NCBI GenBank assembly: GCA_017437605.1
Contig: JAFRYL010000145.1
Location: 1 to 54,112 of the forward strand
Direction: 5' to 3'
DNA from: Ottowia sp.
GTDB taxonomy: Bacteria > Pseudomonadota > Gammaproteobacteria > Burkholderiales > Burkholderiaceae_C
DNA length: 54,112 nt
Part shown: positions 1,331-50,642 of the stretch, piece after piece
Layout: each line of letters begins with the position of its first letter
Position numbering within the stretch: the stretch's first letter is position 1
Made by a program: the position numbers and the translations under genes
The notes under the pieces: generated by a model
What the model saw: only the letters and a program-made list of their open reading frames with translations
Told to the model about the DNA's origin: nothing
The model's database searches: none

Positions 1331-2413
1331 ATGACGGATGAAACACCGCCTCTGCTTGCCGCCGGTGGCTACGGGCAGTGGCTCGCGGCGCTCAAAACGC
1401 GCTTTCGCCAAGTGCAGCTCAAAGCTGCAGTGGCGGTCAACACCGAACTCCTGCAGTTTTATTGGGAACTGGGCGCCGACATCGTCCAGCGTCAGGACGG
1501 GCAGGCGTGGGGCAGCGGCTTTCTGGAAAAGCTCAGTCACGACTTGCGGGCAGAGTTTCCGCATGTGCAAGGCTTCTCCAGGCGCAACCTTGAGCGTATC
1601 CGCCAGTGGCACCAGTATTGGGCGGGCGACGCAGCAATTGCGACACAGCTTGTGTCGCAATTGACTGCCATCCCTTGGGGGCACAACCTTGCCATCGTCA
1701 GCAAATGCCGCAGCCACGCCGAAGCCCTGTATTACGTGCAGCAAACGCAGATGCACGGCTGGAGCCGCGCCGTGCTCACGCACCAGATAGAAAGCGGCCT
1801 CTGGCAGCGCGAAGGGCAAGCCATCAGCAACTTTGAGCGCACGCTGCCCGCGCCGCAGTCCGACCTGGCGGCGCAAGTGCTCAAAGACCCCTACGTGTTT
1901 GACTTTCTCAGTCTCGCCCCCGAACACACCGAGCGCGAACTGGAACGCGCCCTGCTGGACCACATCACCCAATTCCTGCTGGAACTCGGCACCGGCTTTG
2001 CCTACATCGGGCGGCAAGTGCCGCTGCAAGTGGGCGAGCGCGAATTCTTCCCTGACCTGCTCTTCTACCACGCGCGGCTGCACTGCTACGTCGTCGTTGA
2101 ATTGAAAACCGTGGACTTTGAGCCGGAATTTGCCGGCAAACTCAACTTCTACCTCAAAGCCGTGGACGAACAAATGCGCGGCGCAGGCGACGCCCCAACC
2201 ATCGGCCTGCTGCTGTGCAAAAGCAAAGACCGGCTGGTCGCGGAATATGCCCTTTCAGACATGCACAAACCGCTGGGCGTTGCCAGCTACCAGCTTGCGC
2301 ACGAGTTGCCGCAAGACCTGCGCGACAAACTGCCGAGTATTGAGGCGCTAGAAGAGCAACTGCGCGAAGCGGCTTGTGACGACCAAGCGCCGCCGCGCGG
2401 CAGAAAAGCGTAA
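1331..2413 (+). CDS. YhcG/DUF1016 family PD-(D/E)XK nuclease-domain protein
   Basis: AVNTELLQFYWELG, GFSRRNL, KDPYVFDFL, FLLELGTGFAYIGRQ, DLLFYH..LHCYVVVELK, GKLNFYL. Confidence 0.9.
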   Translation: MTDETPPLLAAGGYGQWLAALKTRFRQVQLKAAVAVNTELLQFYWELGADIVQRQDGQAWGSGFLEKLSHDLRAEFPHVQGFSRRNLERIRQWHQYWAGDAAIATQLVSQLTAIPWGHNLAIVSKCRSHAEALYYVQQTQMHGWSRAVLTHQIESGLWQREGQAISNFERTLPAPQSDLAAQVLKDPYVFDFLSLAPEHTERELERALLDHITQFLLELGTGFAYIGRQVPLQVGEREFFPDLLFYHARLHCYVVVELKTVDFEPEFAGKLNFYLKAVDEQMRGAGDAPTIGLLLCKSKDRLVAEYALSDMHKPLGVASYQLAHELPQDLRDKLPSIEALEEQLREAACDDQAPPRGRKA

Positions 2414-10107: not shown

Positions 10108-10176
10108 ATACTGGCAGAAAAAACGTTTTGTCGCCGGCTTCATAAGCCGGTGATGCAGTGCATTATTGTTGGGTAT
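10108..10176. repeat. GCCGGC-core element E6 (long/long)
   Basis: ATACTG-N19-GCCGGC-TTCATAA-GCCGGT-N19-GGGTAT. Confidence 0.9.
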
Positions 10177-10190
10177 GTTTGGAATCAAGG

Positions 10191-10259
10191 ATACCAAGGC
10201 ACGTGAACACAGCTTGCCGGCAAGATAAGCCGGCAAGCTGGTGTTTGCGCTGGCAGTAT
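10191..10259. repeat. GCCGGC-core element E7 (long/long)
   Basis: ATACCA-N19-GCCGGC-AAGATAA-GCCGGC-N19-CAGTAT. Confidence 0.9.
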
Positions 10260-10273
10260 GTTGAAAAACGCCT

Positions 10274-11581
10274 TCACTTCGCACCGGCGGCGCGCAGCAT
10301 GTTGACGATGTTGGTGTGCCCCTTGGCCTGGGCGATGTCCTGGGCGGTGGAGCCGGCGAGCTTGCCTTTGCTGATGGTGGTGTTCAGGTTGGCGCCACGC
10401 TCAATGAGCAGGCGGACGGTGTCGGCGTGCCCCTTGCCGGCGGCAATCATCAGGGCGGTGACGCCGTTTTCTTCCTGCATGTTGATGCTGGCGCCTTTGT
10501 CCAGCAGCAGGCGGGCGGTGGTGGTGTGGCCGTTCTGCGCGGCGAGCATGAGGGGCGTCCAGCGGCGCTTTTCGGTGGCGTTGACGCTGGCGCCGCGCTC
10601 AATGAGCAGGCGGGCGGTGTCGGTGTGCCCCTTGTTGGCGGCGAACATGAGCGGCATCCAGCCTTTGACGTCGGCGGAGGTGAGGCTTGCGCCTTTGTCC
10701 AGCAGCAGGCGCACGGTGTCGGTGTGGCCGTTGGTGGCGGCGAAGATGAGCGGCGTCCAGCCGTCTTCGTCAGCGGCGTTGACTTTGGCACCTTTGCCAA
10801 GGAGCAGGCGGGAGGTGTCGGCGTGGCCGTTGCCGGCGGCAATGGTCAGGGCGGTGGCGCCGGTTTTGGTGGCGGCGCCGACTTTGGCGCCTTTTTCAAG
10901 GAGCAGGCGCACGGTGTCGGTGTAGCCGTTTTGTGCGGCAATCATCAGCGGCGTCCAGCGGTCTTCTTCGGTGACGCCGACTTTGGCGCCTTTGCTGATG
11001 AGCAGGCGGGCGATGTCGGTGTGGCCTTTCTGCGCGGCGAACATGAGGGGCGTCCAGCCGCGTTTGTCGGTGGCGCTCACGGAGGCGCCCTTGTCAAGGA
11101 GCTGGCGGGTGGCGTCGGCGTGACCGTGGCCGGCAGCAATCATCAGCGGGGTGATGTTGTTGACGGTGACGGCGTCGACTTTGGCGCCTTGGTCAAGGAG
11201 CAGGCGCACGGTGTCGGCGCTGCCGTCCTGCGCGGCGAGCATGAGGGCGGTCCAGCCCTTGTTTTCGGTGGCGTGGAGGTTCGCGCCCCGGTCAAGCAGG
11301 AAGCGCGCGGCGTCGGTGTTCCCCTTGGCGGCGGCGAACATGAGGGCGTTCCAGCCGTCGCTGTCGGCGGCGTTGATGGCGACGCCGCCTTCCAGCAGGC
11401 AGCGCAGGTTGTTGGTGTCGCCAGCGCGCGCGGAGTAGAGCAGCGGGAGGGGGGCTTTTTCGTCCGTTGTGGTGTTGCAGGGCGTGCCGGAGGCGTCACG
11501 CACGGCGCCGGTGGTGCCGCAGCCGGCAAGCAGGGCAGTGAGCAGCGCGGCGGCAAGAGTGGAGAGGGTGGTTTTTTTCAT
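10274..11581 (-). CDS. Ankyrin-repeat lipoprotein ANK1 (~12 repeats including caps)
   Basis: MKK..LLAGC lipobox; 33-aa GxTPLMxAAxxGHTDTVRLLLDKGA repeats; ends LRAAGAK. Confidence 0.92.
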   Translation of the reverse strand: MKKTTLSTLAAALLTALLAGCGTTGAVRDASGTPCNTTTDEKAPLPLLYSARAGDTNNLRCLLEGGVAINAADSDGWNALMFAAAKGNTDAARFLLDRGANLHATENKGWTALMLAAQDGSADTVRLLLDQGAKVDAVTVNNITPLMIAAGHGHADATRQLLDKGASVSATDKRGWTPLMFAAQKGHTDIARLLISKGAKVGVTEEDRWTPLMIAAQNGYTDTVRLLLEKGAKVGAATKTGATALTIAAGNGHADTSRLLLGKGAKVNAADEDGWTPLIFAATNGHTDTVRLLLDKGASLTSADVKGWMPLMFAANKGHTDTARLLIERGASVNATEKRRWTPLMLAAQNGHTTTARLLLDKGASINMQEENGVTALMIAAGKGHADTVRLLIERGANLNTTISKGKLAGSTAQDIAQAKGHTNIVNMLRAAGAK

Positions 11582-11606
11582 GCTTGTTTCCTTGGTTGAT
11601 AGAGTT

Positions 11607-11665
11607 GGGTATTGTGTGGTCGCCGGCTTGATAAGCCGGTAACCGTGCATTGATTGGCAAAGTAT
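11607..11665. repeat. GCCGGC-core element E8 (short/long)
   Basis: GGGTAT-N9-GCCGGC-TTGATAA-GCCGGT-N19-AAGTAT. Confidence 0.9.
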
Positions 11666-11679
11666 TGCCAAAAACGCCT

Positions 11680-12450
11680 TCACTTTGCGCCAGCGGCGCG
11701 CAGCATGTTGGCGACGGCGGTGTGACCGTTGGCGGTGGCAATCATCAACGCGGTGAGGCCCTGTTTGTTGGCGGCATCCACTTGGGCGCCCCGGTCAAGG
11801 AGCAGGCGGGCGGTGTCGCTGCGGCCTTCTTGCGCGGCGAGCATCAGCGCAGTCCAGCGCTCATCTGCGGAGGCGGCGTTGGGGTTGGCTCCTTTGTCCA
11901 GCAGCAGGCGGGCGGTGTCGGTGTGACCGCCGCCAGCGGCCATCATCAGCGCGGTGGCGCCATGCTGTTTGTTGTCGGCATTGGGGTTGGCGCCCCGCTC
12001 AAGGAGCAGGCGCGCAGTGCCGAACTGTCCCCTGGTGGCTGCGACCATGAGGGCTGAACCGCCTTTTTCGGTGCTGGCGTGAATGTTGGCGCCTCGGTCA
12101 AGGAGCAGGCGCGCGGTGTCGGTGTGGCCGTTGCCTGCGGCGGACATGAGGGCTGTCCATCCGTCTTTTTCAACGGCGTTGGGGTTGGCGCCTTTGTCAA
12201 GGAGTAGGCGCACGGTGTCGGTCTGCCCTTCGCTGGCCGCGAACATGAGGGCGGTCCAGCCGTCGTCATCCGGGGCGTCAATGGGAGAGCCGCTGTCCAG
12301 CAGGCAGCGCACGTTCCCCGCGTTGCCTTCGCGTGCGGAGTAGAGCAGCGGGGTGACGGCGCTTTCATCTGTCGTGGTGTTGCACGGCGCAGCGTGCGCG
12401 GCGGCGCAGACAAAGAGCGCGAGGGCGGCGGTGAAAAGCTGTTTTTTCAT
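11680..12450 (-). CDS. Secreted ankyrin-repeat protein ANK2 (~7 repeats)
   Basis: Signal peptide ending AHA; ankyrin repeats; ends LRAAGAK. Confidence 0.92.
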   Translation of the reverse strand: MKKQLFTAALALFVCAAAHAAPCNTTTDESAVTPLLYSAREGNAGNVRCLLDSGSPIDAPDDDGWTALMFAASEGQTDTVRLLLDKGANPNAVEKDGWTALMSAAGNGHTDTARLLLDRGANIHASTEKGGSALMVAATRGQFGTARLLLERGANPNADNKQHGATALMMAAGGGHTDTARLLLDKGANPNAASADERWTALMLAAQEGRSDTARLLLDRGAQVDAANKQGLTALMIATANGHTAVANMLRAAGAK

Positions 12451-12461
12451 GGTGTTTTAGG

Positions 12462-12520
12462 CAGTACTGCAGTATCACCGGCAAGTTACGCCGGCGATGC
12501 AGTGTTAATGTTCAGGGTAT
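12462..12520. repeat. GCCGGC-core element E9 (short/long)
   Basis: CAGTAC-N9-ACCGGC-AAGTTAC-GCCGGC-N19-GGGTAT. Confidence 0.8.
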
Positions 12521-16484: not shown

Positions 16485-16543
16485 GGGTATCTATGTGTCG
16501 CCGGCACAAGTCGCCGGCAATGATGTGTTTGAACAATGAGTAT
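16485..16543. repeat. GCCGGC-core element E10 (short/long)
   Basis: GGGTAT-N9-GCCGGC-ACAAGTC-GCCGGC-N19-GAGTAT; fills almost the whole truA-trpF gap. Confidence 0.9.
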
Positions 16544-16546
16544 CCA

Positions 16547-17344
16547 TCAAAAAACGCCCGGCGCAGGCAACCAGTCAAAGGCGGGCGTGCGCTCGGGCAT
16601 GCCCCATTCGGGCGCGTAGCGGGGGCCGAGGAAATACAGCCCGTCCGCCGAAAAGGTGGACCACGCCGCGCTGCGGCGGCGCGCGGCGAGCACTTCGCCC
16701 ATCCACTGCGGCGGCTTCAAACCTTGCCCCACGGCCACGAGGCAGCCCATGATGTTGCGAATCATGTGGTGCAAAAACGCATTACCCTCAAAGTCAAAAC
16801 GCCAGTACGCGCCGCATTGCGAAATGTCCAGCCGCAGCAGTGTTTTCACGGGTGAGGGCGCCTGACAGCCCGCCGCGCGAAACGAGGAAAAATCGTGCTC
16901 GCCCAGCAAGAGCTGCGCCGCCTCGCGCATTGCCGCGCCATCCAGCGGGCGAAAGCTCCATCCCGCGCGCCGCGCCTCCAGCGCCCCGCGCACGCGCGAC
17001 TGCAGCAACAGATAGCTGTAGCGGCGCGAAAGCGCGCACGAGCGCGCATGAAAGCCGTCTGGCGCCACGCGCGCCCACTGCACCGCCACATCGGGCGGCA
17101 GAAAGGCATTCACCCCGCGCACCCAAGAAAACTCCTCGCGCTGCACGCTGCTGTCAAAGTGCACCACCTGCCCGAGCGCATGCACGCCCGTATCCGTGCG
17201 CCCGGCGCAGAGCGTGCGCACGCGCTCACCGGCAAAGCGCGCCAGCGCCGCCTCCAGCACGTCCTGCACGGTGCGCCCCTCGGGTTGGCTCTGCCAGCCG
17301 AGGTAGTTGCTGCCCGCATAGTTGAGACCCAAAGCAATCCGCAT
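16547..17344 (-). CDS. truA: tRNA pseudouridine(38-40) synthase
   Basis: [29 protein letters not shown]. Confidence 0.96.
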
Positions 17345-19494: not shown

Positions 19495-19552
19495 GGTATA
19501 ACATCGTTGCCGGCTTGATAAGCCGGCAATAACATGTAACTACTTATAGTAT
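19494..19552. repeat. GCCGGC-core element E11 (short/long)
   Basis: GGGTAT-N9-GCCGGC-TTGATAA-GCCGGC-N19-TAGTAT; starts on the last base of the uvrB TAG. Confidence 0.9.
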
Positions 19553-22473: not shown

Positions 22474-22566
22474 TGGCGGAGACAGAGGGATTCGAACCCT
22501 CGATGGAGCTCTACACCCCATACTCCCTTAGCAGGGGAGCACCTTCGGCCACTCGGTCATGTCTCC
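22474..22566 (-). tRNA. tRNA-Ser (anticodon GCT)
   Basis: GGAGACA acceptor stem, CTCCC-CTGCTAA-GGGAG anticodon arm, long variable arm, GGTTCGAATCC T-loop, encoded CCA. Confidence 0.95.
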
Positions 22567-22585: not shown

Positions 22586-23866
22586 TTATGCCAGTTTTCC
22601 GCCGCCTGGTTGGTCAAGGCCGAACGCCTGGTGCAGCGCGCGCACGGCAAGCTCGGTGTATTTCTCGTCCACGACGACAGAAATCTTGATTTCGCTGGTG
22701 GAAATCATCTGGATGTTGATGCCTTCTTCGCTCAGCGTGCGGAACATGGTGCTGGCCACGCCCGCGTGGCTGCGCATGCCGATGCCAACCAGGCTGACTT
22801 TGCAGATGTGCTTGTCGCTGATGAGCGTGGCGCCGAGGGCGGGGAGAACATTTTCCTGCAGCAGGGCGCAGGCGCGGTCGCATTCGCTGCGCGCCACAGT
22901 GAAGGAGAAGTCCGCGCGCCCGTCTTTGCCGACGTTCTGGATGACCACGTCCACCTCAATGCCTGCGGCGGCCACAGCGCCGAGGATTTGCGCGGCGGTG
23001 CCGGGCTTGTCGGGCACACCCATGACGGCAATCTTGGCTTCGTCGCGGCTGTAGGCGATGCCGGAGATAAGGGCTTTTTCCATTTTTTCGTCTTCCTCAA
23101 AGGTAATCAGGGTGCCCGAGCGGGCTTCTTCGTTGATGTCGATGTCCCAGGGGGTGAAGCTGGAGAGCACGCGCACGGGCACGCGGTATTTGCCGGCGAA
23201 CTCCACGGAGCGGATTTGCAGCACTTTGCTGCCGAGGCTGGCGAGTTCGAGCATTTCCTCAAAGCTCACGGAGTGCAGGCGCTGCGCTTCGGGGACGATG
23301 CGCGGGTCGGTGGTATAGACGCCGTCCACGTCGGTGTAAATCAGGCATTCGTCGGCGCCCAGGGCTGCGGCCATCGCCACGGCGGAGGTGTCCGAGCCGC
23401 CGCGCCCAAGGGTGGTGATGTTGTTGTTCTCGTCAATGCCCTGAAAACCGGTGACGATGACGACGCGCCCGGCGGCGAGGTCGGCGCGCACGCGCTCGCC
23501 ATCAATGCTTTCAATGCGCGCTTTGGTGTAGGCGCTGTCGGTGCGCACGGGCACCTGCCAGCCGGTGTAGCTGACGGCGGGCTGGCCGAGCGCCTGCAGC
23601 GCAATGGCCAGCAGCGCGGACGATGCCTGCTCGCCCGTGGCGGCGAGTGCGTCCTGCTCGCGCAGGTAGGCCTCGTCAGTCACGCCAGCGGGCGCCAGCT
23701 CCTTGGCCAGCGCCAGCAGGCGGTTGGTTTCGCCGCTCATGGCGCTGGGCACCACGACCATCTGATGGCCGGCGCGCACCCACTTGGCGACGCGCCGCGC
23801 GACGTTGGCGATGCGTTCGGTGGACCCCATGGAGGTGCCGCCGTATTTGTGAACGATGAGTGCCAT
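22586..23866 (-). CDS. lysC: Aspartate kinase
   Basis: MALIVHKYGGTSMG, TTLGRGGSDTSA, YTDVDGVYTTDPR, ACT domains, ISTSEIKISV. Confidence 0.95.
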   Translation of the reverse strand: MALIVHKYGGTSMGSTERIANVARRVAKWVRAGHQMVVVPSAMSGETNRLLALAKELAPAGVTDEAYLREQDALAATGEQASSALLAIALQALGQPAVSYTGWQVPVRTDSAYTKARIESIDGERVRADLAAGRVVIVTGFQGIDENNNITTLGRGGSDTSAVAMAAALGADECLIYTDVDGVYTTDPRIVPEAQRLHSVSFEEMLELASLGSKVLQIRSVEFAGKYRVPVRVLSSFTPWDIDINEEARSGTLITFEEDEKMEKALISGIAYSRDEAKIAVMGVPDKPGTAAQILGAVAAAGIEVDVVIQNVGKDGRADFSFTVARSECDRACALLQENVLPALGATLISDKHICKVSLVGIGMRSHAGVASTMFRTLSEEGINIQMISTSEIKISVVVDEKYTELAVRALHQAFGLDQPGGGKLA

Positions 23867-23989: not shown

Positions 23990-24048
23990 CAGTATGTGTT
24001 GCTTGCCGGCATAAGAAGCCGGCAAGCAAGTGTGGATTGGAGGCGTAT
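23990..24048. repeat. GCCGGC-core element E12 (short/long)
   Basis: CAGTAT-N9-GCCGGC-ATAAGAA-GCCGGC-N19-GCGTAT. Confidence 0.9.
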
Positions 24049-24063
24049 CGCAAAAAAGTGCCT

Positions 24064-24711
24064 TCACTTCGCGCCAGCGGCGCGCAGCATTTGGGCGGTG
24101 GCGGTGTGCCTTTGCCACGTGGCGAGCGTCAGCGCGGTGGCGCCTTTCTTGTCGGTGGCGTTGATGTCGGCGCCTTTTTCAATGAGCATGCGCGCGGTGT
24201 CGGTGTTCCCCATGAGTGCAGCGTACATGAGGGGCGTCCAGCCCGTTTTTGTTGTGGCGTGAATGTTTGCGCCTCGTTCAATGAGAAAGCGGGCGGTGGC
24301 AGTTTGTCCCGTGCTTGCGGCGTTCATCAGGGCAGTGTTGCCGTCTTTGTTTGCGGCGTTGACATTGGCGCCCCTGTCCAGCAACAGGCGGGCGGTGTCG
24401 GTGTGACCGCCTTGCACGGTAATCATCAGCGCGGTGCCGCCGCCAACGGTGGTGGCGTTGGGTTTTGCGCCCCTGTCCAGCAGCAGGTGCACGGTGTCGG
24501 TGTGCCCATCCTTCGCGGCGTGCATGAGGGGCGTCCAGCCGTATTCGTCGGAGACTTTGGGGCTGGCGCCTTGGTCAAGGAGGGCGCGGACGGTGGCGGT
24601 CTGCCCTTCGCCTGCGGCGCGCAGGAGTGCCTGCTTGCTTGCGGTGTCGGTGGTGGCGCAGGCGCTGAGCAGGGCAGCAAGCACAAGGGCGGGGAACAGC
24701 AGTTTTTTCAT
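24064..24711 (-). CDS. Ankyrin-repeat lipoprotein ANK3 (~6 repeats)
   Basis: MKKLL..LLSAC lipobox; ankyrin repeats; ends LRAAGAK. Confidence 0.92.
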   Translation of the reverse strand: MKKLLFPALVLAALLSACATTDTASKQALLRAAGEGQTATVRALLDQGASPKVSDEYGWTPLMHAAKDGHTDTVHLLLDRGAKPNATTVGGGTALMITVQGGHTDTARLLLDRGANVNAANKDGNTALMNAASTGQTATARFLIERGANIHATTKTGWTPLMYAALMGNTDTARMLIEKGADINATDKKGATALTLATWQRHTATAQMLRAAGAK

Positions 24712-24723
24712 GCCGTTTTGCAT

Positions 24724-24782
24724 GGGTATTGTGTGGCTGCCGGCTTGATAAGCCGGCGACCGAATGACGTTGAATGCGGTAT
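24724..24782. repeat. GCCGGC-core element E13 (short/long)
   Basis: GGGTAT-N9-GCCGGC-TTGATAA-GCCGGC-N19-CGGTAT. Confidence 0.9.
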
Positions 24783-24795
24783 GCGAAGAAAACCT

Positions 24796-25530
24796 TTATT
24801 TCTTCGCGCGCTTCGCGCCCTTCGCGCCGGCGGCCTTGAGCATCTTGACGATGGTGGTGTGCCCGTTGGCCTGGGCGATGTCCAGCGCGGTGCGGCCAGC
24901 GGCTTTGCCTTTGGTGACGACGGCGTTGACCTTGGCGCCTTTGTCAAGCAGCAGGCGCACGGTGTCAGCGTGCCCCTGCAATGCAGCGATGGTCAGCGCG
25001 GTGGCGCCCTTGTCGTTGGCGGCGTTGACGTTTGCGCCGTTTTCAAGCAGCAGGCGGGCGGTGTCGGTGTGGCCGCTGGCGGCGGCGGCCATCAGCGCGG
25101 TGCTGCCGTCCTTGTAGGCGGCGCCAACCTGCGCGCCTTTTTCAAGGAGCAGGCGCACGGTGTCAGTGCGGCCATTGCCCGCCGCGCCCATGAGCGCGGT
25201 GAAGCCGTCGCCCTTGTCGGCGCCCACCTGCGCGCCCTTGTCAAGGAGGTTCTGGACGATGTCGGTGTGGCCGCGACCAGCCGCGAGCATGAGTGCGGTG
25301 AGGCCTTCGCCATCAGCAGCGTTGGCATCGGCGCCGGCGTCCAGCAGGCAGCGCACGTTGGCGGCGTCGCCTTCCTTGGCGTCGTGCAGCAGCGCGCTGT
25401 TGGCATCGCTGCCTTCGGCGATGTTGCACTGCGCGGCGGCGCTGGTGGCGCTGTCCTGCACGGTGCCGTTGGTGACGCAGCCGGCAAGCAGCGCCGAGAG
25501 CAGCAGGGCGGGGAGCAGGTGGTGTTTCAT
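24796..25530 (-). CDS. Ankyrin-repeat lipoprotein ANK4 (~6 repeats)
   Basis: LLAGC lipobox; ankyrin repeats; ends LKAAGAKGAKRAKK. Confidence 0.92.
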   Translation of the reverse strand: MKHHLLPALLLSALLAGCVTNGTVQDSATSAAAQCNIAEGSDANSALLHDAKEGDAANVRCLLDAGADANAADGEGLTALMLAAGRGHTDIVQNLLDKGAQVGADKGDGFTALMGAAGNGRTDTVRLLLEKGAQVGAAYKDGSTALMAAAASGHTDTARLLLENGANVNAANDKGATALTIAALQGHADTVRLLLDKGAKVNAVVTKGKAAGRTALDIAQANGHTTIVKMLKAAGAKGAKRAKK

Positions 25531-25554
25531 GCTGGTTTCCTAGGTTGATTGAAG

Positions 25555-25613
25555 GGGTATTGTGTGGTCGCCGGCTTATGAAGCCGGCGATTGTGTGCAG
25601 ATTGGCATTGTAT
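25555..25613. repeat. GCCGGC-core element E14 (short/long)
   Basis: GGGTAT-N9-GCCGGC-TTATGAA-GCCGGC-N19-TTGTAT. Confidence 0.9.
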
Positions 25614-25625
25614 TGCCAAATCGTC

Positions 25626-26537
25626 TCATTCCTTCGCGCCGGCGGCGCGCAGTATTTTCACGATTTCCGGGTGCTTTGAGTCCTTGGCGGCGTCCAGCGC
25701 CGTGGCGCCGGTGAGCTTGCCTTTGGTGACGCGGGCATTCACGTTGGCACCGCTGGCGATGAGCAGGCGCACGATGTCGGCGTGCCCCGCCACCGCTGCA
25801 ACCATCAGTGCGGTGCCGCCGCTCGGGTTGGCGGCGTTGACGTTGGCGCCCTTTTCAATGAGCAGGCGGGCAATGTCGGTGTGGCCGTTTTCCGCCGCGC
25901 CAAAGAGTGCGGTGGAGCCGTTGAGAAGGGTGGCGTTGACGTTGGCGCCGTTGTCAAGCAGCAGGCGCACGATGTCGGTGTTGCCGTACCAGGTGGCCGC
26001 CGTGAGCGGGAGGGCGCCGCCAGCTTTGTCGGCGGCGTTGACATTGGCGCCTTTCGCTATGAGCAGGCGGGCGATGTCGGTGTACCCCCGGCCCGCCGCC
26101 CAGAGCAGCGGTGTGCTGCCGACGGCTTTGCCGCTGGTGAGGGCGACGTTGGTATTGGCGCCCCGCTCAAGGAGCAGGCGGACGATGTCGGTGCTGCCGC
26201 TTATCGTCGCAGTCGTCAGCGCGGTGTAGCCGTTTTTGTCGGTGGCGTTCACCTGCGCGCCCCGCTCAACAAGGTTTTGCACGATGGCGGTGTGCCTCTG
26301 GCTGGCGGCGAACATGAGCGCGGTGCTTCCGTTCCCGTCGGCTTCGTTGACGTTGACGCCGGCGTCCAGCAGGCAGCGCACGTTGGCCGCATCGCCCGAG
26401 CGCGCGGAATACAGCAGCGGCGTGGAGGCGAGCTTGTCCGTCTTGGCGCTGCAGGACGTGCCCTGCACCGTGCCATCGGTGGCGCAGGCAGTCAGCAACG
26501 CCGAGAGCACAAGCGTGGGGAAAAGAGCTTTTTTCAT
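25626..26537 (-). CDS. Ankyrin-repeat lipoprotein ANK5 (~8 repeats)
   Basis: LLTAC lipobox; ankyrin repeats; ends LRAAGAKE. Confidence 0.92.
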   Translation of the reverse strand: MKKALFPTLVLSALLTACATDGTVQGTSCSAKTDKLASTPLLYSARSGDAANVRCLLDAGVNVNEADGNGSTALMFAASQRHTAIVQNLVERGAQVNATDKNGYTALTTATISGSTDIVRLLLERGANTNVALTSGKAVGSTPLLWAAGRGYTDIARLLIAKGANVNAADKAGGALPLTAATWYGNTDIVRLLLDNGANVNATLLNGSTALFGAAENGHTDIARLLIEKGANVNAANPSGGTALMVAAVAGHADIVRLLIASGANVNARVTKGKLTGATALDAAKDSKHPEIVKILRAAGAKE

Positions 26538-26549
26538 GGTGTTTTCCTT

Positions 26550-26608
26550 GGGTATGTAATGCTTGCCGGCTTGATAAGCCGACGACAAAGTGATGATTGA
26601 TGTGGTAT
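26550..26608. repeat. GCCGGC-core element E15 (short/long)
   Basis: GGGTAT-N9-GCCGGC-TTGATAA-GCCGAC-N19-TGGTAT. Confidence 0.88.
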
Positions 26609-26621
26609 TGCTAAAAACGCC

Positions 26622-27101
26622 TCATTTTTTTGCGCCAGCGGCGCGCAGGATTTTCACGATTTCGGTGTGTCCTTCGGCTTGGGCGAAGTCCAGCGCGGTA
26701 TGCCCTTGCGTGGTGGCTGCGTTGAGATCGGCGCCGCTGGCAATGAGCAGGCGGACGGTATCGCTCTGTCCCCACATTGCCGCGAACATCAGCGCGGTTT
26801 CGCCAGTCTTGCGGGAGGCGTTGACCTGAGCGCCCTTTTCAATGAGCAGGCGGGTGGTGTCGGAGGGGCATAAGGTGAGCGCAGCGCTCATAAGCGCGGT
26901 GTCGCCGTTCTCGTCGGCAGCGTTGACGTCCGCGCCCTTCTCAATGAGCAGGCGAATGGTGTTGTTGTCGCACATGAGCACTGCCTGCATCAGCGCGGAG
27001 GTGCCAGACGCGCCGCCGCTGCTGCCCTGCGCGGTGCCGGTGGTGGCGCAGGCGGTGAGTAGCGCCGAGAGCAGCAGGACGGGGAGCAGATGTTTATTCA
27101 T
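26622..27101 (-). CDS. Ankyrin-repeat lipoprotein ANK6 (~4 repeats)
   Basis: LLTAC lipobox; ankyrin repeats; ends LRAAGAKK. Confidence 0.9.
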   Translation of the reverse strand: MNKHLLPVLLLSALLTACATTGTAQGSSGGASGTSALMQAVLMCDNNTIRLLIEKGADVNAADENGDTALMSAALTLCPSDTTRLLIEKGAQVNASRKTGETALMFAAMWGQSDTVRLLIASGADLNAATTQGHTALDFAQAEGHTEIVKILRAAGAKK

Positions 27102-27112
27102 AGAATTTGATG

Positions 27113-27171
27113 AGGTATTGATTGCTTGCCGGCTTGATAAGCCGGCGATGAAATGTATTATCAATGGGTAT
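27113..27171. repeat. GCCGGC-core element E16 (short/long)
   Basis: AGGTAT-N9-GCCGGC-TTGATAA-GCCGGC-N19-GGGTAT. Confidence 0.9.
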
Positions 27172-27238: not shown

Positions 27239-28219
27239 TCACTCCGCTGCGGGTGCCCACCGCAGCACCTCCCCCACACGCTGCACGTAGCCGTTGCCGA
27301 CTTTGAGGTGAATGTGGTGGCCGCGCGTGCGGCAGGCGGCGATGAGGCGCAGCAGTTCGTCCAGTTGTGCGCTGCTCGGTGTGGCGCCGGGCAGGGTGCT
27401 GAGCCAAAAGCGCAGGGCGCCCGCCTGGCGCGCGGGGGAGAGCTGCTGCAGCGCGGCGATACGGGGCGGGGTGCCGGTGGTGTGCAGGTCCTGCGCGGCG
27501 ATTTCGCCCAGTACTTCTTGCGCCTGCGCTGCGTGGGCGGCGCTGCGCGCAAAGGTGGTGCGAAAGTGCGGGAATGCCTCGTCCAGCGCGGGGAGCAGCC
27601 GCGCGCGAATGCGGTTGCGGGTGTAGCGCGTGTCGGTGTTGCTTGGGTCTTCCACCCACGTTGCGCCGCGCTCGCGCAGCCAGTGGCGAATGTCGGCGCC
27701 GGGCACGTCCAGCAAAGGGCGCACGCAGTGCAGCGCGCCGCGCTGCCAGTGCGCGGGCATGGCCGCCAGCCCGGGCAGGCCCGCGCCGCGCGTGAGGGCG
27801 AGCAGCAAGGTTTCCACTTGGTCGTCGGCATGGTGCGCGAGCGCGAGGGTGCGCACGCCGCTGGCGGCGGCAAGCTGGTCAAAGGCGGCGTAGCGCGCGG
27901 CGCGCGCGGCGGCTTCTGTGCTCTGCCCGCGTGCGGCGTTCACCTGCACGCGCTGCACGCGCAGCGGTACACCAAGCCGCTGGCAGCAAGCGGCGCAGTG
28001 GCGTTCAAAATCATCAGCGGCGGCTTGCAGGCCGTGGTGGATGTGCCATGCTTCAAGCTGCCCCGGCCAATGCGCGGCGCAGGCAAGCAGCAGCGCGGTG
28101 GAGTCCGCCCCGCCGCTGTAGGCGACAGCCAGCGGCAGCGCGGGCGCGCTTGCGACAAAAACGTGCATGGCCGCGTCTACGCGGCGGGCGGCTGTGCGTT
28201 CTTTGACAGTTGCAGGCAT
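27239..28219 (-). CDS. tilS: tRNA(Ile)-lysidine synthetase
   Basis: AVAYSGGADS PP-loop, EAAARAARY, AHHADDQVET, DPSN..RNRIR; start uncertain. Confidence 0.92.
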   Translation of the reverse strand: MPATVKERTAARRVDAAMHVFVASAPALPLAVAYSGGADSTALLLACAAHWPGQLEAWHIHHGLQAAADDFERHCAACCQRLGVPLRVQRVQVNAARGQSTEAAARAARYAAFDQLAAASGVRTLALAHHADDQVETLLLALTRGAGLPGLAAMPAHWQRGALHCVRPLLDVPGADIRHWLRERGATWVEDPSNTDTRYTRNRIRARLLPALDEAFPHFRTTFARSAAHAAQAQEVLGEIAAQDLHTTGTPPRIAALQQLSPARQAGALRFWLSTLPGATPSSAQLDELLRLIAACRTRGHHIHLKVGNGYVQRVGEVLRWAPAAE

Positions 28220-31004: not shown

Positions 31005-31064
31005 ATACTTCATGCATAAACATCGGATTGCCGGCTCAACTTGCCGGCGGCAATATCAATACCC
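31005..31064. repeat. GCCGGC-core element E18 (long/short)
   Basis: ATACTT-N19-GCCGGC-TCAACTT-GCCGGC-N10-ATACCC. Confidence 0.85.
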
Positions 31065-31074
31065 TACAAAAACC

Positions 31075-31845
31075 ATGAAAAAACAGCTTTTCGCCGCAGC
31101 CCTTGCACTGTTCGCCTGCGCCGCACACGCCGCGCCGTGCGACACCACCACGGACGGCAACGCGCCCACGCCGCTGATGTATTCCGCGCGCACGGGCAAC
31201 GCCGAAAACGTGCGCTGCCTGCTGGCCGCGGGCGCCGACCCCAACGCCGCCGATGGTGGAGGGCGAACCGCGCTCCTGTTCGCCGCAGCCAAAAAACATG
31301 CCGACATCGTTCGCCTGCTCATTGACAAAGGCGCGGATGTCAACGCCGCTGACGAGGACGGCTGGACGCAGCTCATGCTCGCTGCGAGTGGAGGTCACAC
31401 CGACGCTGCACGCCTGCTCATAGAGCACGGCGCCGACCTCAACGCTGCCCACAAGGGCGGCACCACCGCGCTGATGATGGCGGCGATAAGCACGATAAGC
31501 ACCGACACCGCCCGGCTGCTCATTGAAAAGGGCGCCGACGTCAACGCACCCGACAAACACGGCAGAACTGCGCTGATGAACGCTGCGAGCAATCTCCGGC
31601 GCAACGGCGCCTCACGCTTGCTCATCGACGCTGGCGCGCAGGTCAATGCGGCCAACAAAAACGGCTTCACCGCGCTCATGGGCGCGGCATACAGCGGCCA
31701 GACCGACACCGTTCGCCTGCTCATTGAAAAAGGCGCCGATGTCAACGCCGCCGACAAGGACGGTGGCACTGCACTGGGGCGCGCTGTCAAGAAAGGGCAC
31801 ACCGACATCGCGGACATGCTGCGCGCCGCCGGTGCAAAAAGATAG
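31075..31845 (+). CDS. Secreted ankyrin-repeat protein ANK7 (~7 repeats)
   Basis: MKKQLFAAALALFACAAHA signal; ankyrin repeats; ends LRAAGAKR. Confidence 0.92.
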   Translation: MKKQLFAAALALFACAAHAAPCDTTTDGNAPTPLMYSARTGNAENVRCLLAAGADPNAADGGGRTALLFAAAKKHADIVRLLIDKGADVNAADEDGWTQLMLAASGGHTDAARLLIEHGADLNAAHKGGTTALMMAAISTISTDTARLLIEKGADVNAPDKHGRTALMNAASNLRRNGASRLLIDAGAQVNAANKNGFTALMGAAYSGQTDTVRLLIEKGADVNAADKDGGTALGRAVKKGHTDIADMLRAAGAKR

Positions 31846-31860
31846 GCGCTCTCATTTACG

Positions 31861-31929
31861 ATACTGCCTGCATAAAAATCAACTTTCCCGTATAACAAGC
31901 CGGCAAGTAACGCTTGTTTTCAGGGGTAT
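31861..31929. repeat. GCCGGC-core element E19 (long/long, decayed left core)
   Basis: ATACTG-N19-TCCCGT-ATAACAA-GCCGGC-N19-GGGTAT. Confidence 0.7.
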
Positions 31930-31943
31930 CTAAAACACATCGC

Positions 31944-32002
31944 ATACTCTGCAAAAACATATTCCATCACCGGCAACTTGTGCCGGTGATGCTGTGATAC
32001 CC
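31944..32002. repeat. GCCGGC-core element E20 (long/short)
   Basis: ATACTC-N19-ACCGGC-AACTTGT-GCCGGT-N9-ATACCC. Confidence 0.85.
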
Positions 32003-38755: not shown

Positions 38756-39709
38756 TCAATAGCCCTGATTCCGGTCCACGACGTTGGTGAGCGCCTCGCC
38801 CGCCAGAAAGCGCGCGAGGTTGTCCGCTGCAATCTGCACGGCGCGCTCCATCGTGCCGGGAAGCAGGAAGCGGCTTGCCACATGCGGGGTGATGAAGACG
38901 CGCTCCATGCCCCAGAGCGCGTCGTCCGCGGGCAGCGGCTCCGGCTCGGTGACATCAAGCGCAACGGCGCGCAGGTGGCCGTCTGCGAGCACCTTTTTCA
39001 ATGCAGCGGGGTCAATGGCGCTGCCACGCCCGACGTTGATGAGGCAGGCATCCGCCTTCATCAGGCGCAGGCGGCGCTCGTCCATGAGGCGGGTGGTAGC
39101 CGCGCCGCCCGGCAGCACCATCGTTACCACATCGGCGCTGGGCAGCACTTCGTCCAGATGCTCGATGGTCAACACCTCGTCCACACACGCCGGTTTGTCC
39201 AGCGCGCGCCGGCGCACACCGATGACGTGGGCGCCAAGCGCCTTCATCTTGGCGGCGTAGGTGCTGCCAGCGGCGCCCAGTCCCAGAACGGCAATGCGTG
39301 CGCCCTCGACGGAGCGCATCGCGCCGCTCACTGCCCATGTGCGCGCCTGCTGTTGCTGCGCGTAGCTTTTCAGCCCGCGCAGCAGCGCGAAGGTGAGCGC
39401 CACGGCATGCTCGGCAACGCTCAGGGCGTGCGCGGAAGCGGCATTGGTCAGCGTGGCTTGGGGGCGCAGGCAGTCAGCCGCCGCGAACGGATCGGCGCCA
39501 GCGGTAAAGAGCTGCAGCCATGCGAGCTGCCCCGCCTTTTTGACCTGTTCGGCAGAAGGCAGGCCGAGCAAGGCATCCGCCTCGTGCAAATCGGCATCTG
39601 TGGCGGCGTCCGCAGTGCGAAAAACCAGCGAGGCGCGCTCGCCAGCCGCCGCGAGCAACGCCTGTTTGTGCGCGTCGTCAAGCGGCGCGATGACCAGAAT
39701 CTTTTTCAT
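38756..39709 (-). CDS. D-2-hydroxyacid dehydrogenase
   Basis: VLGLGAAG, INVGRG, ALDVTEPEPLP, ITPHVA. Confidence 0.9.
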   Translation of the reverse strand: MKKILVIAPLDDAHKQALLAAAGERASLVFRTADAATDADLHEADALLGLPSAEQVKKAGQLAWLQLFTAGADPFAAADCLRPQATLTNAASAHALSVAEHAVALTFALLRGLKSYAQQQQARTWAVSGAMRSVEGARIAVLGLGAAGSTYAAKMKALGAHVIGVRRRALDKPACVDEVLTIEHLDEVLPSADVVTMVLPGGAATTRLMDERRLRLMKADACLINVGRGSAIDPAALKKVLADGHLRAVALDVTEPEPLPADDALWGMERVFITPHVASRFLLPGTMERAVQIAADNLARFLAGEALTNVVDRNQGY

Positions 39710-40788
39710 GACGTTTCCTTGTGTTGAAGCCCTGTTAAATGGAGTTTGGTTTGTGCTCTTTCCCCCATCGTCAGGCTGCGCTGTGTCGCGAATATTTCCT
39801 TCTGCCGTTCTATTTCCTTGCGCAATTCCTCCTCGGACGGCAAATACGTCAGGTACTTCGCCGCGAAAAGCTGCTTGCTGCCGTGCAGAACGGAATAGCG
39901 GGCGATGTCTTTGCCCGTTTCGGAACAGAGCACAAGCCCGACAGTGGGGTTGTCGCCCTCGGTGCGCTTTATGTCATCAAACATGCGCACATACATGTCC
40001 ATTTGCCCGACGTCTTTGTGCGTCAGTTTCCCGGTTTTGAGGTCAACAAGGAAGAAGCATTTGAGAATGTAGTTGTAGAAGACGAGGTCAATAAAGTAAT
40101 CCTCGCCGTCGGCCACGATGTGCTGCTGGCGCGCGACGAACGAGAAGCCGCGCCCCAGTTCCATGATGAACGACGTGATGTGCGACAGAATCGCCGATTC
40201 AAGCTCGCTTTCGGTAAAGCTGGAATTGCTCGGCAGCCCGAGAAACTCGGCAACGACAGGGCTTTTGACCAGCTCGGCGTTCGCGGGCGGATTCTCTGCC
40301 GTTTTTTCTAGCATCTCGGCAATGACGGCCTCCTTTTTAGGCGAGGCGAGAAGCCGGTGGTAGTACTGCGAGCCGACGTTTCTCGCCAGTGTCCGCGCGC
40401 TCCAGTTTTCCCGCGACGCCTCGCGGAGGTACCAATACCGCGCGTCGGCGTTGACGACAGGCAAAACCTGCCTGATGTGCGTCCAGGTCAGATTTGGCAC
40501 TCGCGAGTGCCAAATCTCAAAATCCGGCAACTGCGCGTAGAATTGCCGGTAGTCGCGCAGCCGCCTGGCCGAATAGCGGTCTCCATAGACAGGGCGCAGG
40601 GTTTTCGCCAATTCATCAATCAAATGGGCACCATATGTCGCGCGCTCTTCGCCACCCTGTTCTTCTTCAACAATCCGCCGGCCAATCCGCCAATAGGTCA
40701 GCGCGGCAATGATGTTTGCTGCGGAATAGGCTTGGAGAACGCCCTTGTCGATGATGTTCCTGACATCGGAGGCCAATGAGGATTTCAT
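39706..40788 (-). CDS. Second YhcG/DUF1016 family PD-(D/E)XK protein
   Basis: YWRIGRRIVEEEQ, LTWTH, WSARTL, ELGRGFSFVARQ, IDLVFYN..DLK, GQMDMYV. Confidence 0.88.
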   Translation of the reverse strand: MKSSLASDVRNIIDKGVLQAYSAANIIAALTYWRIGRRIVEEEQGGEERATYGAHLIDELAKTLRPVYGDRYSARRLRDYRQFYAQLPDFEIWHSRVPNLTWTHIRQVLPVVNADARYWYLREASRENWSARTLARNVGSQYYHRLLASPKKEAVIAEMLEKTAENPPANAELVKSPVVAEFLGLPSNSSFTESELESAILSHITSFIMELGRGFSFVARQQHIVADGEDYFIDLVFYNYILKCFFLVDLKTGKLTHKDVGQMDMYVRMFDDIKRTEGDNPTVGLVLCSETGKDIARYSVLHGSKQLFAAKYLTYLPSEEELRKEIERQKEIFATQRSLTMGERAQTKLHLTGLQHKETS

Positions 40789-49829: not shown

Positions 49830-49888
49830 ATACTCATTGAAATAATTCTGCGTCGCCGGCTTGTTTTGCCGGCGACTGAATGATACCC
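49830..49888. repeat. GCCGGC-core element E25 (long/short)
   Basis: ATACTC-N19-GCCGGC-TTGTTTT-GCCGGC-N9-ATACCC. Confidence 0.9.
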
Positions 49889-49987
49889 ATGCGCTGATGC
49901 TTCCATCAGCGTTGCGCCTTGGTGTTTGCGCACTGCTGCACACGTTCTACAATGCGCAGCAATCATTGAACATTGATGGAGAACTGT

Positions 49988-50305
49988 ATGCCTGCTGCAG
50001 CCACTGCCGATGCCTTTGTGGGGGTTCGCATTCCCCGCACCATGAAAGAGCACGTTGCCGCCGTTGCCGACCGTGCGGGGCTGAACATTTCCGACCTGCT
50101 GCGCATGTTCCTCAAACGCGTTGACGACGATGGGCGCCTGCCGTTTGACCCCTTTGAGGAGCGTATCCCCAACGCCAAGACGCTGGCGGCCATGCGCGAG
50201 GCCGAGGAGATAAAGCACGCCCGTTTCAGTGACCCCGAGGAGATGTTCCGTGAACTCGACAAAGCGGCGCTCGCCTACAAGCAAGCGCACGAAGCTGCCG
50301 CGTAA
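49988..50305 (+). CDS. RelB/DinJ family antitoxin
   Basis: VRI...GLNISDLLRMFL..LPF..IPNAKTLAAMRE. Confidence 0.85.
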   Translation: MPAAATADAFVGVRIPRTMKEHVAAVADRAGLNISDLLRMFLKRVDDDGRLPFDPFEERIPNAKTLAAMREAEEIKHARFSDPEEMFRELDKAALAYKQAHEAAA

Positions 50306-50576
50306 GCACGACTGCACCAGGAGCTTTACGGACGACTGGGAACGCCTGAACCTTTCCGGGCGCTACGACATGGCTGCGCTCAAGGAAGCCATGCTCCTGC
50401 TCATCGCTGGCGACGCGCCCTTGCCCGCAGAGTACCGTGACCACAAGTTGTCAGGAAAGATGAATAAATACCGCGAGTGTCATATTGGCGGCGATTTCCT
50501 GCTGATGTATGAGCTGCTCGGCGATACGGACATCATCTTTGTGCGCGCCGGCTCGCACGCGGATTTGTTTGGCTAG
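50250..50576 (+). CDS. YafQ family mRNA interferase toxin
   Basis: GAGGAG RBS before GTG; YRDHKLSG..RECHIGGDFLLMY..RAGSHADLF. Confidence 0.88.
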   Translation: MNSTKRRSPTSKRTKLPRKHDCTRSFTDDWERLNLSGRYDMAALKEAMLLLIAGDAPLPAEYRDHKLSGKMNKYRECHIGGDFLLMYELLGDTDIIFVRAGSHADLFG

Positions 50577-50583
50577 AGCCTTG

Positions 50584-50642
50584 ATACCCAATTGATTTTG
50601 CCACTATCGCCGGCTTATGTTGCCGGCGATGGAGTGATACCC
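50584..50642. repeat. GCCGGC-core element E26 (long/short)
   Basis: ATACCC-N19-GCCGGC-TTATGTT-GCCGGC-N9-ATACCC. Confidence 0.9.

What the first reader, a model, noticed from the sequence alone, without database searches (positions are those of the whole stretch)
23990..27171. Integron-like array: four ankyrin lipoprotein genes each separated by one directly repeated 59-bp element
Seen: E12-ANK3-E13-ANK4-E14-ANK5-E15-ANK6-E16, all in the same orientation. Each gene fills the space between two elements. Stops lie 12-15 nt from the long-arm GTAT and starts 11-24 nt from the short arm. E13, E15 and E16 share the spacer TTGATAA. Known: tilS and lysC-tRNA-Ser are usually neighbours in Burkholderiales, so the array appears inserted in a conserved locus. 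Inference: one-gene cassettes gained, lost or shuffled by recombination at the 7-bp core, with no attC motif and no adjacent IntI.
Basis: partly seen in the sequence, partly recalled or inferred. Interest (0 to 1): 0.88.

Follow-up and report, generated by a model that had tools for sequence, protein, structure and literature searches.

The report
Genome-wide polar gene-swapping repeat
The repeats between these four ankyrin lipoprotein genes are 5 of about 750 copies of a polar 57-base element spread between the genes of a ruminant-gut bacterium; gene-order breaks and one exact single-gene loss fall at these elements, so they likely act as recombination sites for an enzyme not yet identified.

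Summary
Observation confirmed; 'integron-like array' is too local a reading. The element (GTAT-N10-CCGGC-N7-GCCGG-N22-GTAT) has 719-771 copies in this 2.04-Mb genome, 740 of 742 intergenic, also between core genes. It occurs in 2 of 49 genus genomes and 0 of 401 family genomes searched. It is strongly polar: 672 short/long, 45 long/long and 2 short/short arm pairs. Gene neighbours separated by an element are mostly broken in the sister species (kept 8 of 39 versus 54 of 78). Homology between paralogous loci ends inside the element. One of three informative metagenome strains lacks ANK6 by an in-register 563-bp loss that leaves one hybrid element. Cassette order was unchanged in all strains that bridged junctions, and variation inside ankyrin genes also occurs. 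There is no attC motif and no IntI; no cognate recombinase was found (XerC/XerD, two small serine recombinases, one IS110 in another repeat). Best reading (0.5): a dispersed, polar site-specific recombination site that makes genes swappable modules. It is closest to Neisseria dRS3/NIME but has a different, longer anatomy. Rivals: a REP/HUH-type element; a protein-binding site with incidental recombination.

The parts
23992..24048 (+). Element E12 (short arm - GCCGGC ATAAGAA GCCGGC - long arm); short arm faces lysC 5' end
   Evidence: runs X5, X6, X7 carry 92 letters in place of 24034-24065
24064..24711 (-). ANK3, ankyrin-repeat lipoprotein (alternative start 24723)
24726..24782 (+). Element E13, spacer TTGATAA
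24796..25530 (-). ANK4, ankyrin-repeat lipoprotein; diverges internally in run X6
25557..25613 (+). Element E14, spacer TTATGAA
25626..26537 (-). ANK5, ankyrin-repeat lipoprotein
26552..26608 (+). Element E15, spacer TTGATAA; left partner of the X6 deletion
26622..27101 (-). ANK6, ankyrin-repeat lipoprotein; absent from the X6 contig, present in X4 and X5
27115..27171 (+). Element E16, spacer TTGATAA; long arm faces tilS 3' end
22586..23866 (-). lysC aspartate kinase (conserved flank); tRNA-Ser at 22474-22566
27239..28168 (-). tilS (conserved flank)
10120..12520 (+). Second ankyrin cluster in the window: two minus-strand ankyrin genes (10274-11581, 11680-12450) among elements at 10120, about 10203, 11609 and 12464
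16487..16543 (+). Element between trpF and truA; in run X5, 712 letters replace 51 starting right after the first spacer base
19496..19552 (+). Element between core genes uvrB and polA (example of a non-cassette copy)
31005..32000 (-). Ankyrin gene 31075-31845 (+) between two minus-strand elements (31005-31061, 31944-32000): same polarity as the array
49830..50640 (-). relB-yafQ toxin-antitoxin pair between two directly repeated elements

Best explanation
The element is a lineage-specific, polar intergenic repeat with about 750 copies per genome, and it likely works as a dispersed site-specific recombination site, so that a gene lying between two same-facing copies, such as each ankyrin lipoprotein gene here, would behave as a one-gene module that can be lost or gained. 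Shown: copy number, intergenic position, short/long polarity, helically phased spacing, coincidence with gene-order breaks, homology ending inside the element, and one in-register gene loss. Inferred: a dimeric recombinase, most likely of tyrosine type given the dyad with a 7-nt asymmetric spacer, exchanges strands in the core. The two directly repeated 16-nt boxes (A/T tract...RGTAT, about 2 and 3 helical turns from the dyad) act as arm-type sites that set orientation. Short/long by short/long exchange then gives deletion or insertion between direct copies and inversion between opposed copies. Spacer mismatch is tolerated, as with IntDOT. Incoming modules would arrive by natural transformation (comEC present). 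The enzyme is not identified. The ankyrin lipoproteins are likely a diversifying envelope repertoire (binding or immunity roles, untested).
For: Copy number: 685 cores versus 37-110 at other spacings; 771 profile hits versus 0 in the reversed genome; 740 of 742 intergenic (own gene caller). Polarity: 672 S-L, 45 L-L, 2 S-S of 719 versus about 159 S-S and 202 L-L if arms paired at random; sister G041 221/10/0 of 231. Gene adjacency kept in G041: tandem 49 of 122 with element versus 122 of 168 without; divergent 11 of 26 versus 78 of 91; contigs picked by number 8 of 39 versus 54 of 78 (gene sides, so some pairs count twice). The arm type facing a gene is kept at 30 of 41 broken junctions (p=0.004). 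Paralogous loci: identity of one flank and arm stops inside the element (6 S-side and 10 L-side families, unshared flank at background 0.29-0.30 versus 0.27). Four-way reassortment at the core among C36:1649, C143:3349, C181:1031, C29:10446 and C70:5799; spacers swapped between otherwise near-identical duplicates (identical in 4 of 10 pairs). X6 in-register loss of ANK6; X5 insertion starting in a spacer. Ankyrin genes flanked on both sides 19 of 23 versus 90 of 1542 other genes; 17 of 18 in one polarity. All 9 multi-gene runs (22 genes) have the short arm at the 5' end. Close pairs lie 72-73, 83-84, 95-96 or 107-108 bp core to core.
Against: No cognate enzyme was found. G000 has only XerC and XerD, two small serine recombinases (45, 56), one IS110 inserted in a different repeat (14-16, 93), and no Y1, Y2 or large serine recombinase above cut-off (13, 78, 79, 117); the assembly is 97% complete in 215 contigs. 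Only one exact loss was seen (1 of 3 informative runs, 6 laid), and its 22-bp identity also suits homology-driven slippage. No reordering or circle was seen. The right end of the X5 insertion does not map inside the element. Several paralog breaks lie at the short-arm GTAT rather than in the spacer. A looser polarity test gave 23 same versus 21 opposite. G000-G041 elements are too diverged to map crossovers. Compensatory stem changes fit a hairpin better than a duplex site. Elements come and go at colinear loci (in both genomes at 34 of 79 kept sides with any element), which pure reciprocal exchange does not explain. Doubly flanked genes are not clearly more accessory (orthologue found 22% versus 29%, p=0.22).
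Confidence: 0.5

Rival explanations
1. A REP/IS200-IS605-like single-strand element: an HUH (Y1-type) enzyme binds the core hairpin and cuts at the conserved tetranucleotide on each side. This spreads the element and captures or drops genes between copies.
For: Compensatory stem changes in otherwise unrelated copies: position 17/29, 20 observed versus 2.5 expected; 14/32, 18 versus 3.9; G041 33 versus 15.8. Cores fold as hairpins. Several paralog breaks lie at the short-arm GTAT. Dimers and enrichment in convergent gaps, 170 of 188, resemble REPs. Gains and losses at colinear loci. GTAG-type REPs abut the long-arm GTAT (23 of 191 start 35-39 nt from the dyad).
Against: No Y1 in G000. G041's one Y1 is an IS605-type copy with its own ends. 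The tetranucleotide is 9 nt from the stem, whereas described REPs have GTAG/GTGG 0-2 nt from it (PMC6006769, passages). No pairing beyond the 6-bp stem: position 13/33 pairs 0.47 versus 0.44 expected. G-T and A-C mismatches are equally common, so no strand is preferred. Almost no clonal copies or linkage between modules.
Confidence: 0.22
2. A structural or regulatory protein-binding site (nucleoid organiser or transcription boundary) placed at transcription-unit ends. Rearrangements collect there only because these AT-rich repeats are tolerated break sites and give microhomology for RecA or slippage.
For: Helical phasing and AA/TT and CA/TG dinucleotide patterns suggest shape readout. Occupancy follows gene geometry (convergent 170/188, tandem 308/625, divergent 55/220). 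The X6 loss used 22 identical bases. No recombinase was found. Weak link of orientation to local GC3 skew (56% of 449, p=6e-4).
Against: In divergent gaps, all of which are unit boundaries, adjacency is kept 11 of 26 times with an element versus 78 of 91 without. Spacers are swapped between near-identical duplicates, and arms reassort at the core between copies sharing little else. Random crossover at a palindromic core should make S-S as often as L-L (2 versus 45). Promoter and terminator scans give no consistent hit on the elements.
Confidence: 0.2
3. Ordinary tandem duplication and unequal crossing-over of ankyrin genes, with the element carried along as a passenger.
For: The paralogs are 47-56% identical with variable repeat number. 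X6 diverges inside ANK4 and small in-gene insertions occur. Ankyrin-flanking elements share arm subtypes.
Against: It does not explain the genome-wide link to breaks among non-paralogous genes, the unrelated genes in same-polarity units on C200 (LprI, SH3, FG-GAP, ankyrin), or the ANK6 loss ending in the elements rather than in the genes.
Confidence: 0.06
4. A true integron or CALIN (IntI acting on attC sites).
For: One gene per unit, common orientation, little intergenic space, toxin-antitoxin and secreted cargo.
Against: No RYYYAAC...GTTRRRY pair in the array or the window. No long-range covariation. Both tyrosine recombinases score as XerD/XerC and far below the IntI cut-off (135 and 106 versus 265 bits). 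Sites are genome-wide and in both orientations.
Confidence: 0.02

Closest known systems
Neisseria dRS3 repeats / NIME arrays
   Same: About 700 intergenic copies per 2-Mb genome; 6-bp inverted arms around a variable spacer; AT-richer flanks; linked to surface-protein genes, gene insertion or loss and rearrangement; proposed target of a site-specific recombinase in a transformable mucosal betaproteobacterium (PMC1797815, PMC3898611, passages).
   Different: Different sequence and a 7-nt spacer (dRS3 is ATTCCC-N8-GGGAAT). Fixed, polar short and long arms ending in directly repeated GTAT instead of 19-214-bp RS families. Mostly single copies or dimers, not long arrays. No Piv/IS110-type phage enzyme found at the sites. 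PMC1797815 reports NIMEs as not observed outside Neisseria.
Integrons (IntI/attC) and CALIN
   Same: Same-facing one-gene units separated by a variable repeat; an empty site holds one hybrid element.
   Different: No attC motif or fold, no IntI, no single attI platform; about 750 sites dispersed in both orientations, including between core genes.
REP/BIME and IS200/IS605 ends (HUH Y1 enzymes)
   Same: Hundreds of intergenic short-stem palindromes, dimers, a conserved tetranucleotide, enrichment downstream of genes, compensatory stem changes.
   Different: The tetranucleotide is GTAT, present twice in direct repeat at 9 and 21 nt from the stem rather than once at 0-2 nt. GCCGGC does not occur in the main text of the GTAG/CGTC survey (PMC3733652; its figures were not seen). 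No Y1 gene in G000.
Bacteroidales rAID-1 arrays
   Same: Arrays of small co-oriented genes, some immunity-like, separated by repeated intergenic motifs in a gut bacterium (bioRxiv 10.1101/471110, passages).
   Different: rAID-1 has a dedicated 5' XerD-like recombinase, low-GC cargo and a local array. Here cargo GC is 63.5-69% (host-like), there is no adjacent recombinase, and sites are genome-wide.
IntDOT-type tyrosine recombination with mismatched overlap
   Same: Precedent for strand exchange that tolerates non-identical overlap regions and uses arm-type sites (PMC2817482, abstract).
   Different: That system acts on a few att sites of one conjugative element; no such integrase was found here.

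Membership tests
Integron/CALIN | attC sites with R and L boxes (RYYYAAC...GTTRRRY; motif recalled) and a conserved bottom-strand fold | tested here: not met
   0 motif pairs in array and window; no long-range covariation in 662 windows. IntegronFinder's covariance model could not be run.
Integron/CALIN | IntI-family integrase | tested here: not met
   Two tyrosine recombinases in G000, best hits XerD and XerC, integron-integrase model far below cut-off; assembly 97% complete
Integron/CALIN | Co-oriented one-gene cassettes that can be lost leaving one site | tested here: met
   (one exact loss)
Neisseria dRS3/NIME | ATTCCC-N8-GGGAAT core | tested here: not met
   Core is GCCGGC-N7-GCCGGC
Neisseria dRS3/NIME | Hundreds of intergenic copies associated with variable surface genes and rearrangement | tested here: met
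Neisseria dRS3/NIME | Targeted by a filamentous-phage IS110/Piv-type enzyme | tested here: inconclusive
   The one IS110 sits in another repeat. The filamentous prophage on C138 is cut by the contig end and carries a small serine recombinase. No true element in viral contigs.
REP (GTAG/CGTC) with TnpA-REP | GTAG/GTGG (or CGTC) tag 0-2 nt 5' of the hairpin foot | tested here: not met
   GTAT lies 9 nt from the stem and recurs 21 nt after it; definition from PMC6006769 and PMC3733652
REP (GTAG/CGTC) with TnpA-REP | Hairpin kept by compensatory change | tested here: met
   (6-bp stem only; may also arise by palindrome correction)
REP (GTAG/CGTC) with TnpA-REP | Cognate Y1 transposase flanked by the repeat | tested here: not met
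   None in G000; the G041 copy is IS605-type without this element beside it
Tyrosine-recombinase site (general) | Inverted binding arms around a 6-8-nt asymmetric spacer | tested here: met
Tyrosine-recombinase site (general) | Cleavage at spacer borders by a cognate enzyme | not testable with these tools
   Needs biochemistry; breakpoints are compatible but not resolved
rAID-1 | 5' XerD-like recombinase and low-GC (<=41%) co-oriented cargo | tested here: not met
   No recombinase beside the array; cargo GC 63.5-69%

The most novel reading that the evidence does not exclude
A new, integron-independent, genome-wide cassette system. A dedicated (or repurposed host) recombinase recognises about 750 polar sites whose direction is set by two distant GTAT boxes rather than by the spacer. 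It tolerates mismatched 7-nt spacers, and so turns much of the chromosome into swappable modules while building arrays of secreted ankyrin and other envelope proteins, a 'distributed integron'.
Probability: 0.3. Interest if true: 0.92.

Novelty: new variant of a known kind. Interest (0 to 1): 0.72.

Why it matters
The idea that hundreds of short intergenic dyads serve as sites for a specific recombinase that diversifies surface genes was proposed for Neisseria dRS3/NIME, and the papers I read treat it as a hypothesis. Here an independent lineage shows a similar system with an unusually rigid, polar anatomy and more than 900 natural variants in two species. That makes polarity, spacer tolerance and crossover position directly testable. 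A recombinase with built-in polarity and spacer tolerance would be a new genome-engineering chemistry. The system could also explain the ankyrin expansion (180 and 154 Ank_2 matches versus 2-7 in three relatives) and the scrambled gene order in this ruminant-gut lineage.

Tried and rejected
Enzyme hunt, all without a cognate candidate: tyrosine recombinases (G041's additional ones, on contigs C19, C49, C126, C139, C186 and C319, show no consistent element beside them), Y1, Y2 (78, one sub-threshold hit in an off-frame ORF), IS110, small and large serine recombinases, motif scans and atypical-region list, and a by-eye look at 178 basic soluble proteins. Viral contigs: 0, 0 and 1 hits; the hit is a chance match inside a phage coding sequence. 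Metagenome contigs: 4 hits, none scoring as a typical element (best 25 bits). The hits in G042/G043 (1 and 3 exact matches) were first read as horizontal transfer and rejected: two G043 contigs are 99.4-99.97% identical to G000 over core-looking DNA, so misbinning is likelier. A long-range single-strand fold was rejected. Linkage mapping within G000 and G000-G041 element alignments (74) could not place crossovers. A dif-motif comparison was uninformative, since most genus genomes also lack the recalled motif. Rfam found only tRNA-Ser (90, 104). No T6SS VipB in the six genomes searched, so a cognate-immunity role is unsupported; orphan immunity stays open. No RNA holder was listed. Earlier scan notes: nothing found. 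Eight literature searches found no description of this element; the library is open-access only, and figures and supplements were not seen.
Full report
Observation. Each element reads GTAT-N9-GCCGGC-N7-GCCGGC-N21-GTAT on the + strand (57 nt). The genes lie on the minus strand with the short (S) arm at their 5' end and the long (L) arm 12-15 nt from their stop. E13, E15 and E16 share the spacer TTGATAA. The core is far beyond chance: 26 matches in the window versus 2.6 expected. tilS is adjacent to lysC without elements in G022, G002 and G012; G010 has another neighbour.

The element is genome-wide. The window is contig C71 of a 2.04-Mb, 215-contig, 97% complete genome. CCGG-N9-CCGG occurs 685 times against 37-110 for spacings 4-8 and 10-15. 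A strict search gives 663 copies, 662 of them distinct as 90-nt windows. A profile gives 771 non-overlapping hits and 0 in the reversed genome. With my own crude gene caller, 740 of 742 strong hits are intergenic, including between core genes such as uvrB/polA and trpF/truA. Occupancy of gaps of 57 nt or more is 170/188 convergent, 308/625 tandem and 55/220 divergent. The element was found in 2 of 49 genus genomes, G000 and G041 (=G064; lysC 87% identical), in 0 of 40 relatives first drawn and 0 of 401 family genomes. One of the two full-length homologues of the ANK5 N-terminus is named 'Ottowia sp.'. The runs that hold the locus are gut metagenomes, X5 and X7 bovine. One passage of PMC12918008 lists Ottowia among dominant forestomach-epithelium taxa. 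G000 and G041 have 180 and 154 Ank_2 matches versus 7, 6 and 2 in three relatives.

Anatomy. Information extends from position -10 to 57, symmetric about the dyad at 23. A 16-nt box (A/T tract, then RGTAT) sits at both ends in direct repeat, about two and three helical turns from the dyad (my reading of the profile). Arms are almost always S with L: 672 S-L, 45 L-L and 2 S-S of 719 in G000, and 221/10/0 of 231 in the 1.10 Mb of G041 fetched. Random pairing would give about 159 S-S. Close pairs in all orientations lie 72-73, 83-84, 95-96 or 107-108 bp core to core (derived). The spacer is asymmetric: 533 of 664 split into a 4-nt and a 3-nt half that combine almost freely and face either arm (245 versus 288). 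There is no long-range covariation and no pairing beyond the stem. Within the stem, however, compensatory changes are enriched in copies that share little else: 20 versus 2.5 expected, 18 versus 3.9, and 33 versus 15.8 in G041. G-T and A-C mismatches are equally common. This fits a hairpin or cruciform, a symmetric dimer, or palindrome correction.

Evidence for recombination at the element. (1) Against G041 (136 of about 340 contigs, 597 orthologues, median 83% identity, ankyrins excluded), gene adjacency is kept at 49 of 122 tandem sides with an element versus 122 of 168 without, and at 11 of 26 versus 78 of 91 divergent sides. On 47 contigs picked by number it is 8 of 39 versus 54 of 78. Convergent gaps (16 of 63 versus 2 of 5) lack a control, and pairs may count twice. 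The arm type facing a gene is kept at 30 of 41 broken and 24 of 34 kept junctions. An earlier, looser test gave 23 versus 21. (2) Within G000, loci that share one flank lose identity inside the element (6 S-side and 10 L-side families). C181:1031 shares the S side of C36:1649/C143:3349, C29:10446/C70:5799 share their L side, and C181 and C29/C70 carry the same spacer, as a reciprocal exchange at the core would need. In loci duplicated on both sides the spacer is identical in only 4 of 10 pairs while distal arms are 90-94% identical. Other breaks lie at the S-side GTAT, some beside an inserted GTAG-type REP. (3) Six public runs were laid. X6 joins 26559 to 27123 in one 5,318-nt contig: a 563-bp loss equal to the E15-E16 spacing, with the crossover inside 22 identical bases (positions 9-30). 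X4 and X5 keep ANK6; X2, X7 and X9 do not bridge. X5 has 712 letters in place of 51 starting after the first spacer base of the trpF-truA element; the right end is not inside the element, and X6 has no such insert. X5, X6 and X7 have 60 extra nt from position 43 of E12.

Order was unchanged wherever junctions were bridged. X6 also diverges inside ANK4, and small in-gene insertions occur. Flanking spacers are identical in only 3 of 18 ankyrin units. Doubly flanked genes include core genes and are not clearly more accessory (22% versus 29% with an orthologue, p=0.22), though they are richer in paralogs (36% versus 10%) and lipoproteins (18% versus 4%). Still, ankyrin genes are flanked on both sides in 19 of 23 cases versus 90 of 1542 others, 17 of 18 in one polarity. 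All 9 multi-unit runs put S at the 5' end, including a C200 array of unrelated secreted proteins (LprI, SH3, FG-GAP, ankyrin).

Enzyme. None was found. G000 encodes XerD and XerC, two small serine recombinases (45, 56) and one IS110 with its own inverted repeats inside a different palindrome family (14-16, 48, 93). It has no Y1, Y2, large serine or IntI-type enzyme above cut-off (13, 78, 79, 117, 121). comEC is present in all six genomes checked. Multi-copy mobile genes are often missing from such assemblies.

Mechanism and rivals. I favour a polar site-specific recombination site (0.5): dyad core, 7-nt overlap and two direct-repeat arm boxes that set orientation, with mismatch tolerance as described for IntDOT (PMC2817482, abstract). 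The near-absence of S-S, the swapped spacers and the in-register loss are what this predicts; enzyme class, cut sites and circles are inferred. An HUH/REP-like element (0.22) explains stem covariation, breaks at GTAT and copy turnover, but fails the 0-2-nt tag rule (PMC6006769, passages) and lacks a Y1 gene. A structural or regulatory binding site with incidental recombination (0.2) explains phasing and the missing enzyme but less well the divergent-gap contrast and the spacer swaps. Plain ankyrin unequal crossing-over (0.06) and a true integron (0.02) fail as whole explanations.

Known relatives and novelty. It works most like Neisseria dRS3/NIME (about 700 copies, proposed recombinase target, linked to surface genes; PMC1797815 and PMC3898611, passages) and, locally, like integron or rAID-1 arrays (PMC9024848 and bioRxiv 10.1101/471110, passages). 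It is a member of none by their defining features. GCCGGC does not occur in the text of the GTAG/CGTC REP survey (PMC3733652, passages and section 6; figures unseen). Eight literature searches and three look-ups of earlier scan notes found no description. Verdict: a new variant of dispersed recombinogenic intergenic repeats, interest 0.72. There is a 0.3 chance that it is a categorically new, genome-wide cassette system.

Noticed in passing
L206 (G000:C200:7000-14200): Second cassette-like array of eight secreted or envelope genes (2 LprI, SH3, Ank+FGE-sulfatase, FG-GAP, 2 Ank, HEAT), mostly bounded by same-facing elements. Five unrelated genes share a near-identical 5' leader next to the short arm.
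   Followed up: partly
G000 C94, C106, C143, C163, C186, C198, C214 and others: A family of about 18 surface proteins with a shared C-terminal sorting-like tail (resembles IPTL-CTERM; name recalled, not tested). 8 of 11 listed have a long arm at their 3' end. An exosortase EpsH gene lies on C138.
   Followed up: partly
G000, genome-wide: GTAG-type REP-like hairpins cluster at the element: 57 of 191 lie within 80 nt of a core, 23 start directly after the long-arm GTAT; no Y1/RAYT gene in the assembly.
   Followed up: partly
G000 contig ends; L003:1300-2800: A third repeat family (CCCCTC-G/T-CCC palindromes) is prominent among a cluster of 39 similar contig ends; the single IS110/IS1111 copy is inserted in one.
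   Followed up: partly
L122:17600-20000, L123: End of a filamentous prophage (Zot-family gene, Gly/Ser-rich coat-like ORF) with a small serine recombinase, next to a PIN toxin-antitoxin pair and an element at 16713; cut by the contig end.
   Followed up: partly
window 24034-24065: Three other strains (X5, X6, X7) carry 92 letters here instead of 32, starting at position 43 of E12, the border of the distal arm box; the letters were not shown.
   Followed up: no
window 1331-2413 and 39706-40623: Two YhcG/DUF1016 PD-(D/E)XK nuclease genes; the first lies between two opposed elements. A four-member family genome-wide.
   Followed up: no
L076:10000-10450 (G041): Element-like sequence repeated inside a 108-nt tandem repeat that appears to be coding.
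   Followed up: no
G041, genome-wide: The sister species has drifted to a GCCCGC/GCGGGC core variant in about a quarter of half-sites, with more diverse spacers: species-specific turnover of the site.
   Followed up: partly
L021, L038, L039, L015: Contigs in two unrelated bins (G042, G043) are 99%+ or 87-88% identical to G000: probable misbinning, and a hint of a third element-bearing species.
   Followed up: partly
G000 C4:21986-22903, C128:39528-40157, C150:1208-2182: By eye (recalled likeness, untested): Cas1-like, Cas6e-like and IS481-like proteins.
   Followed up: no
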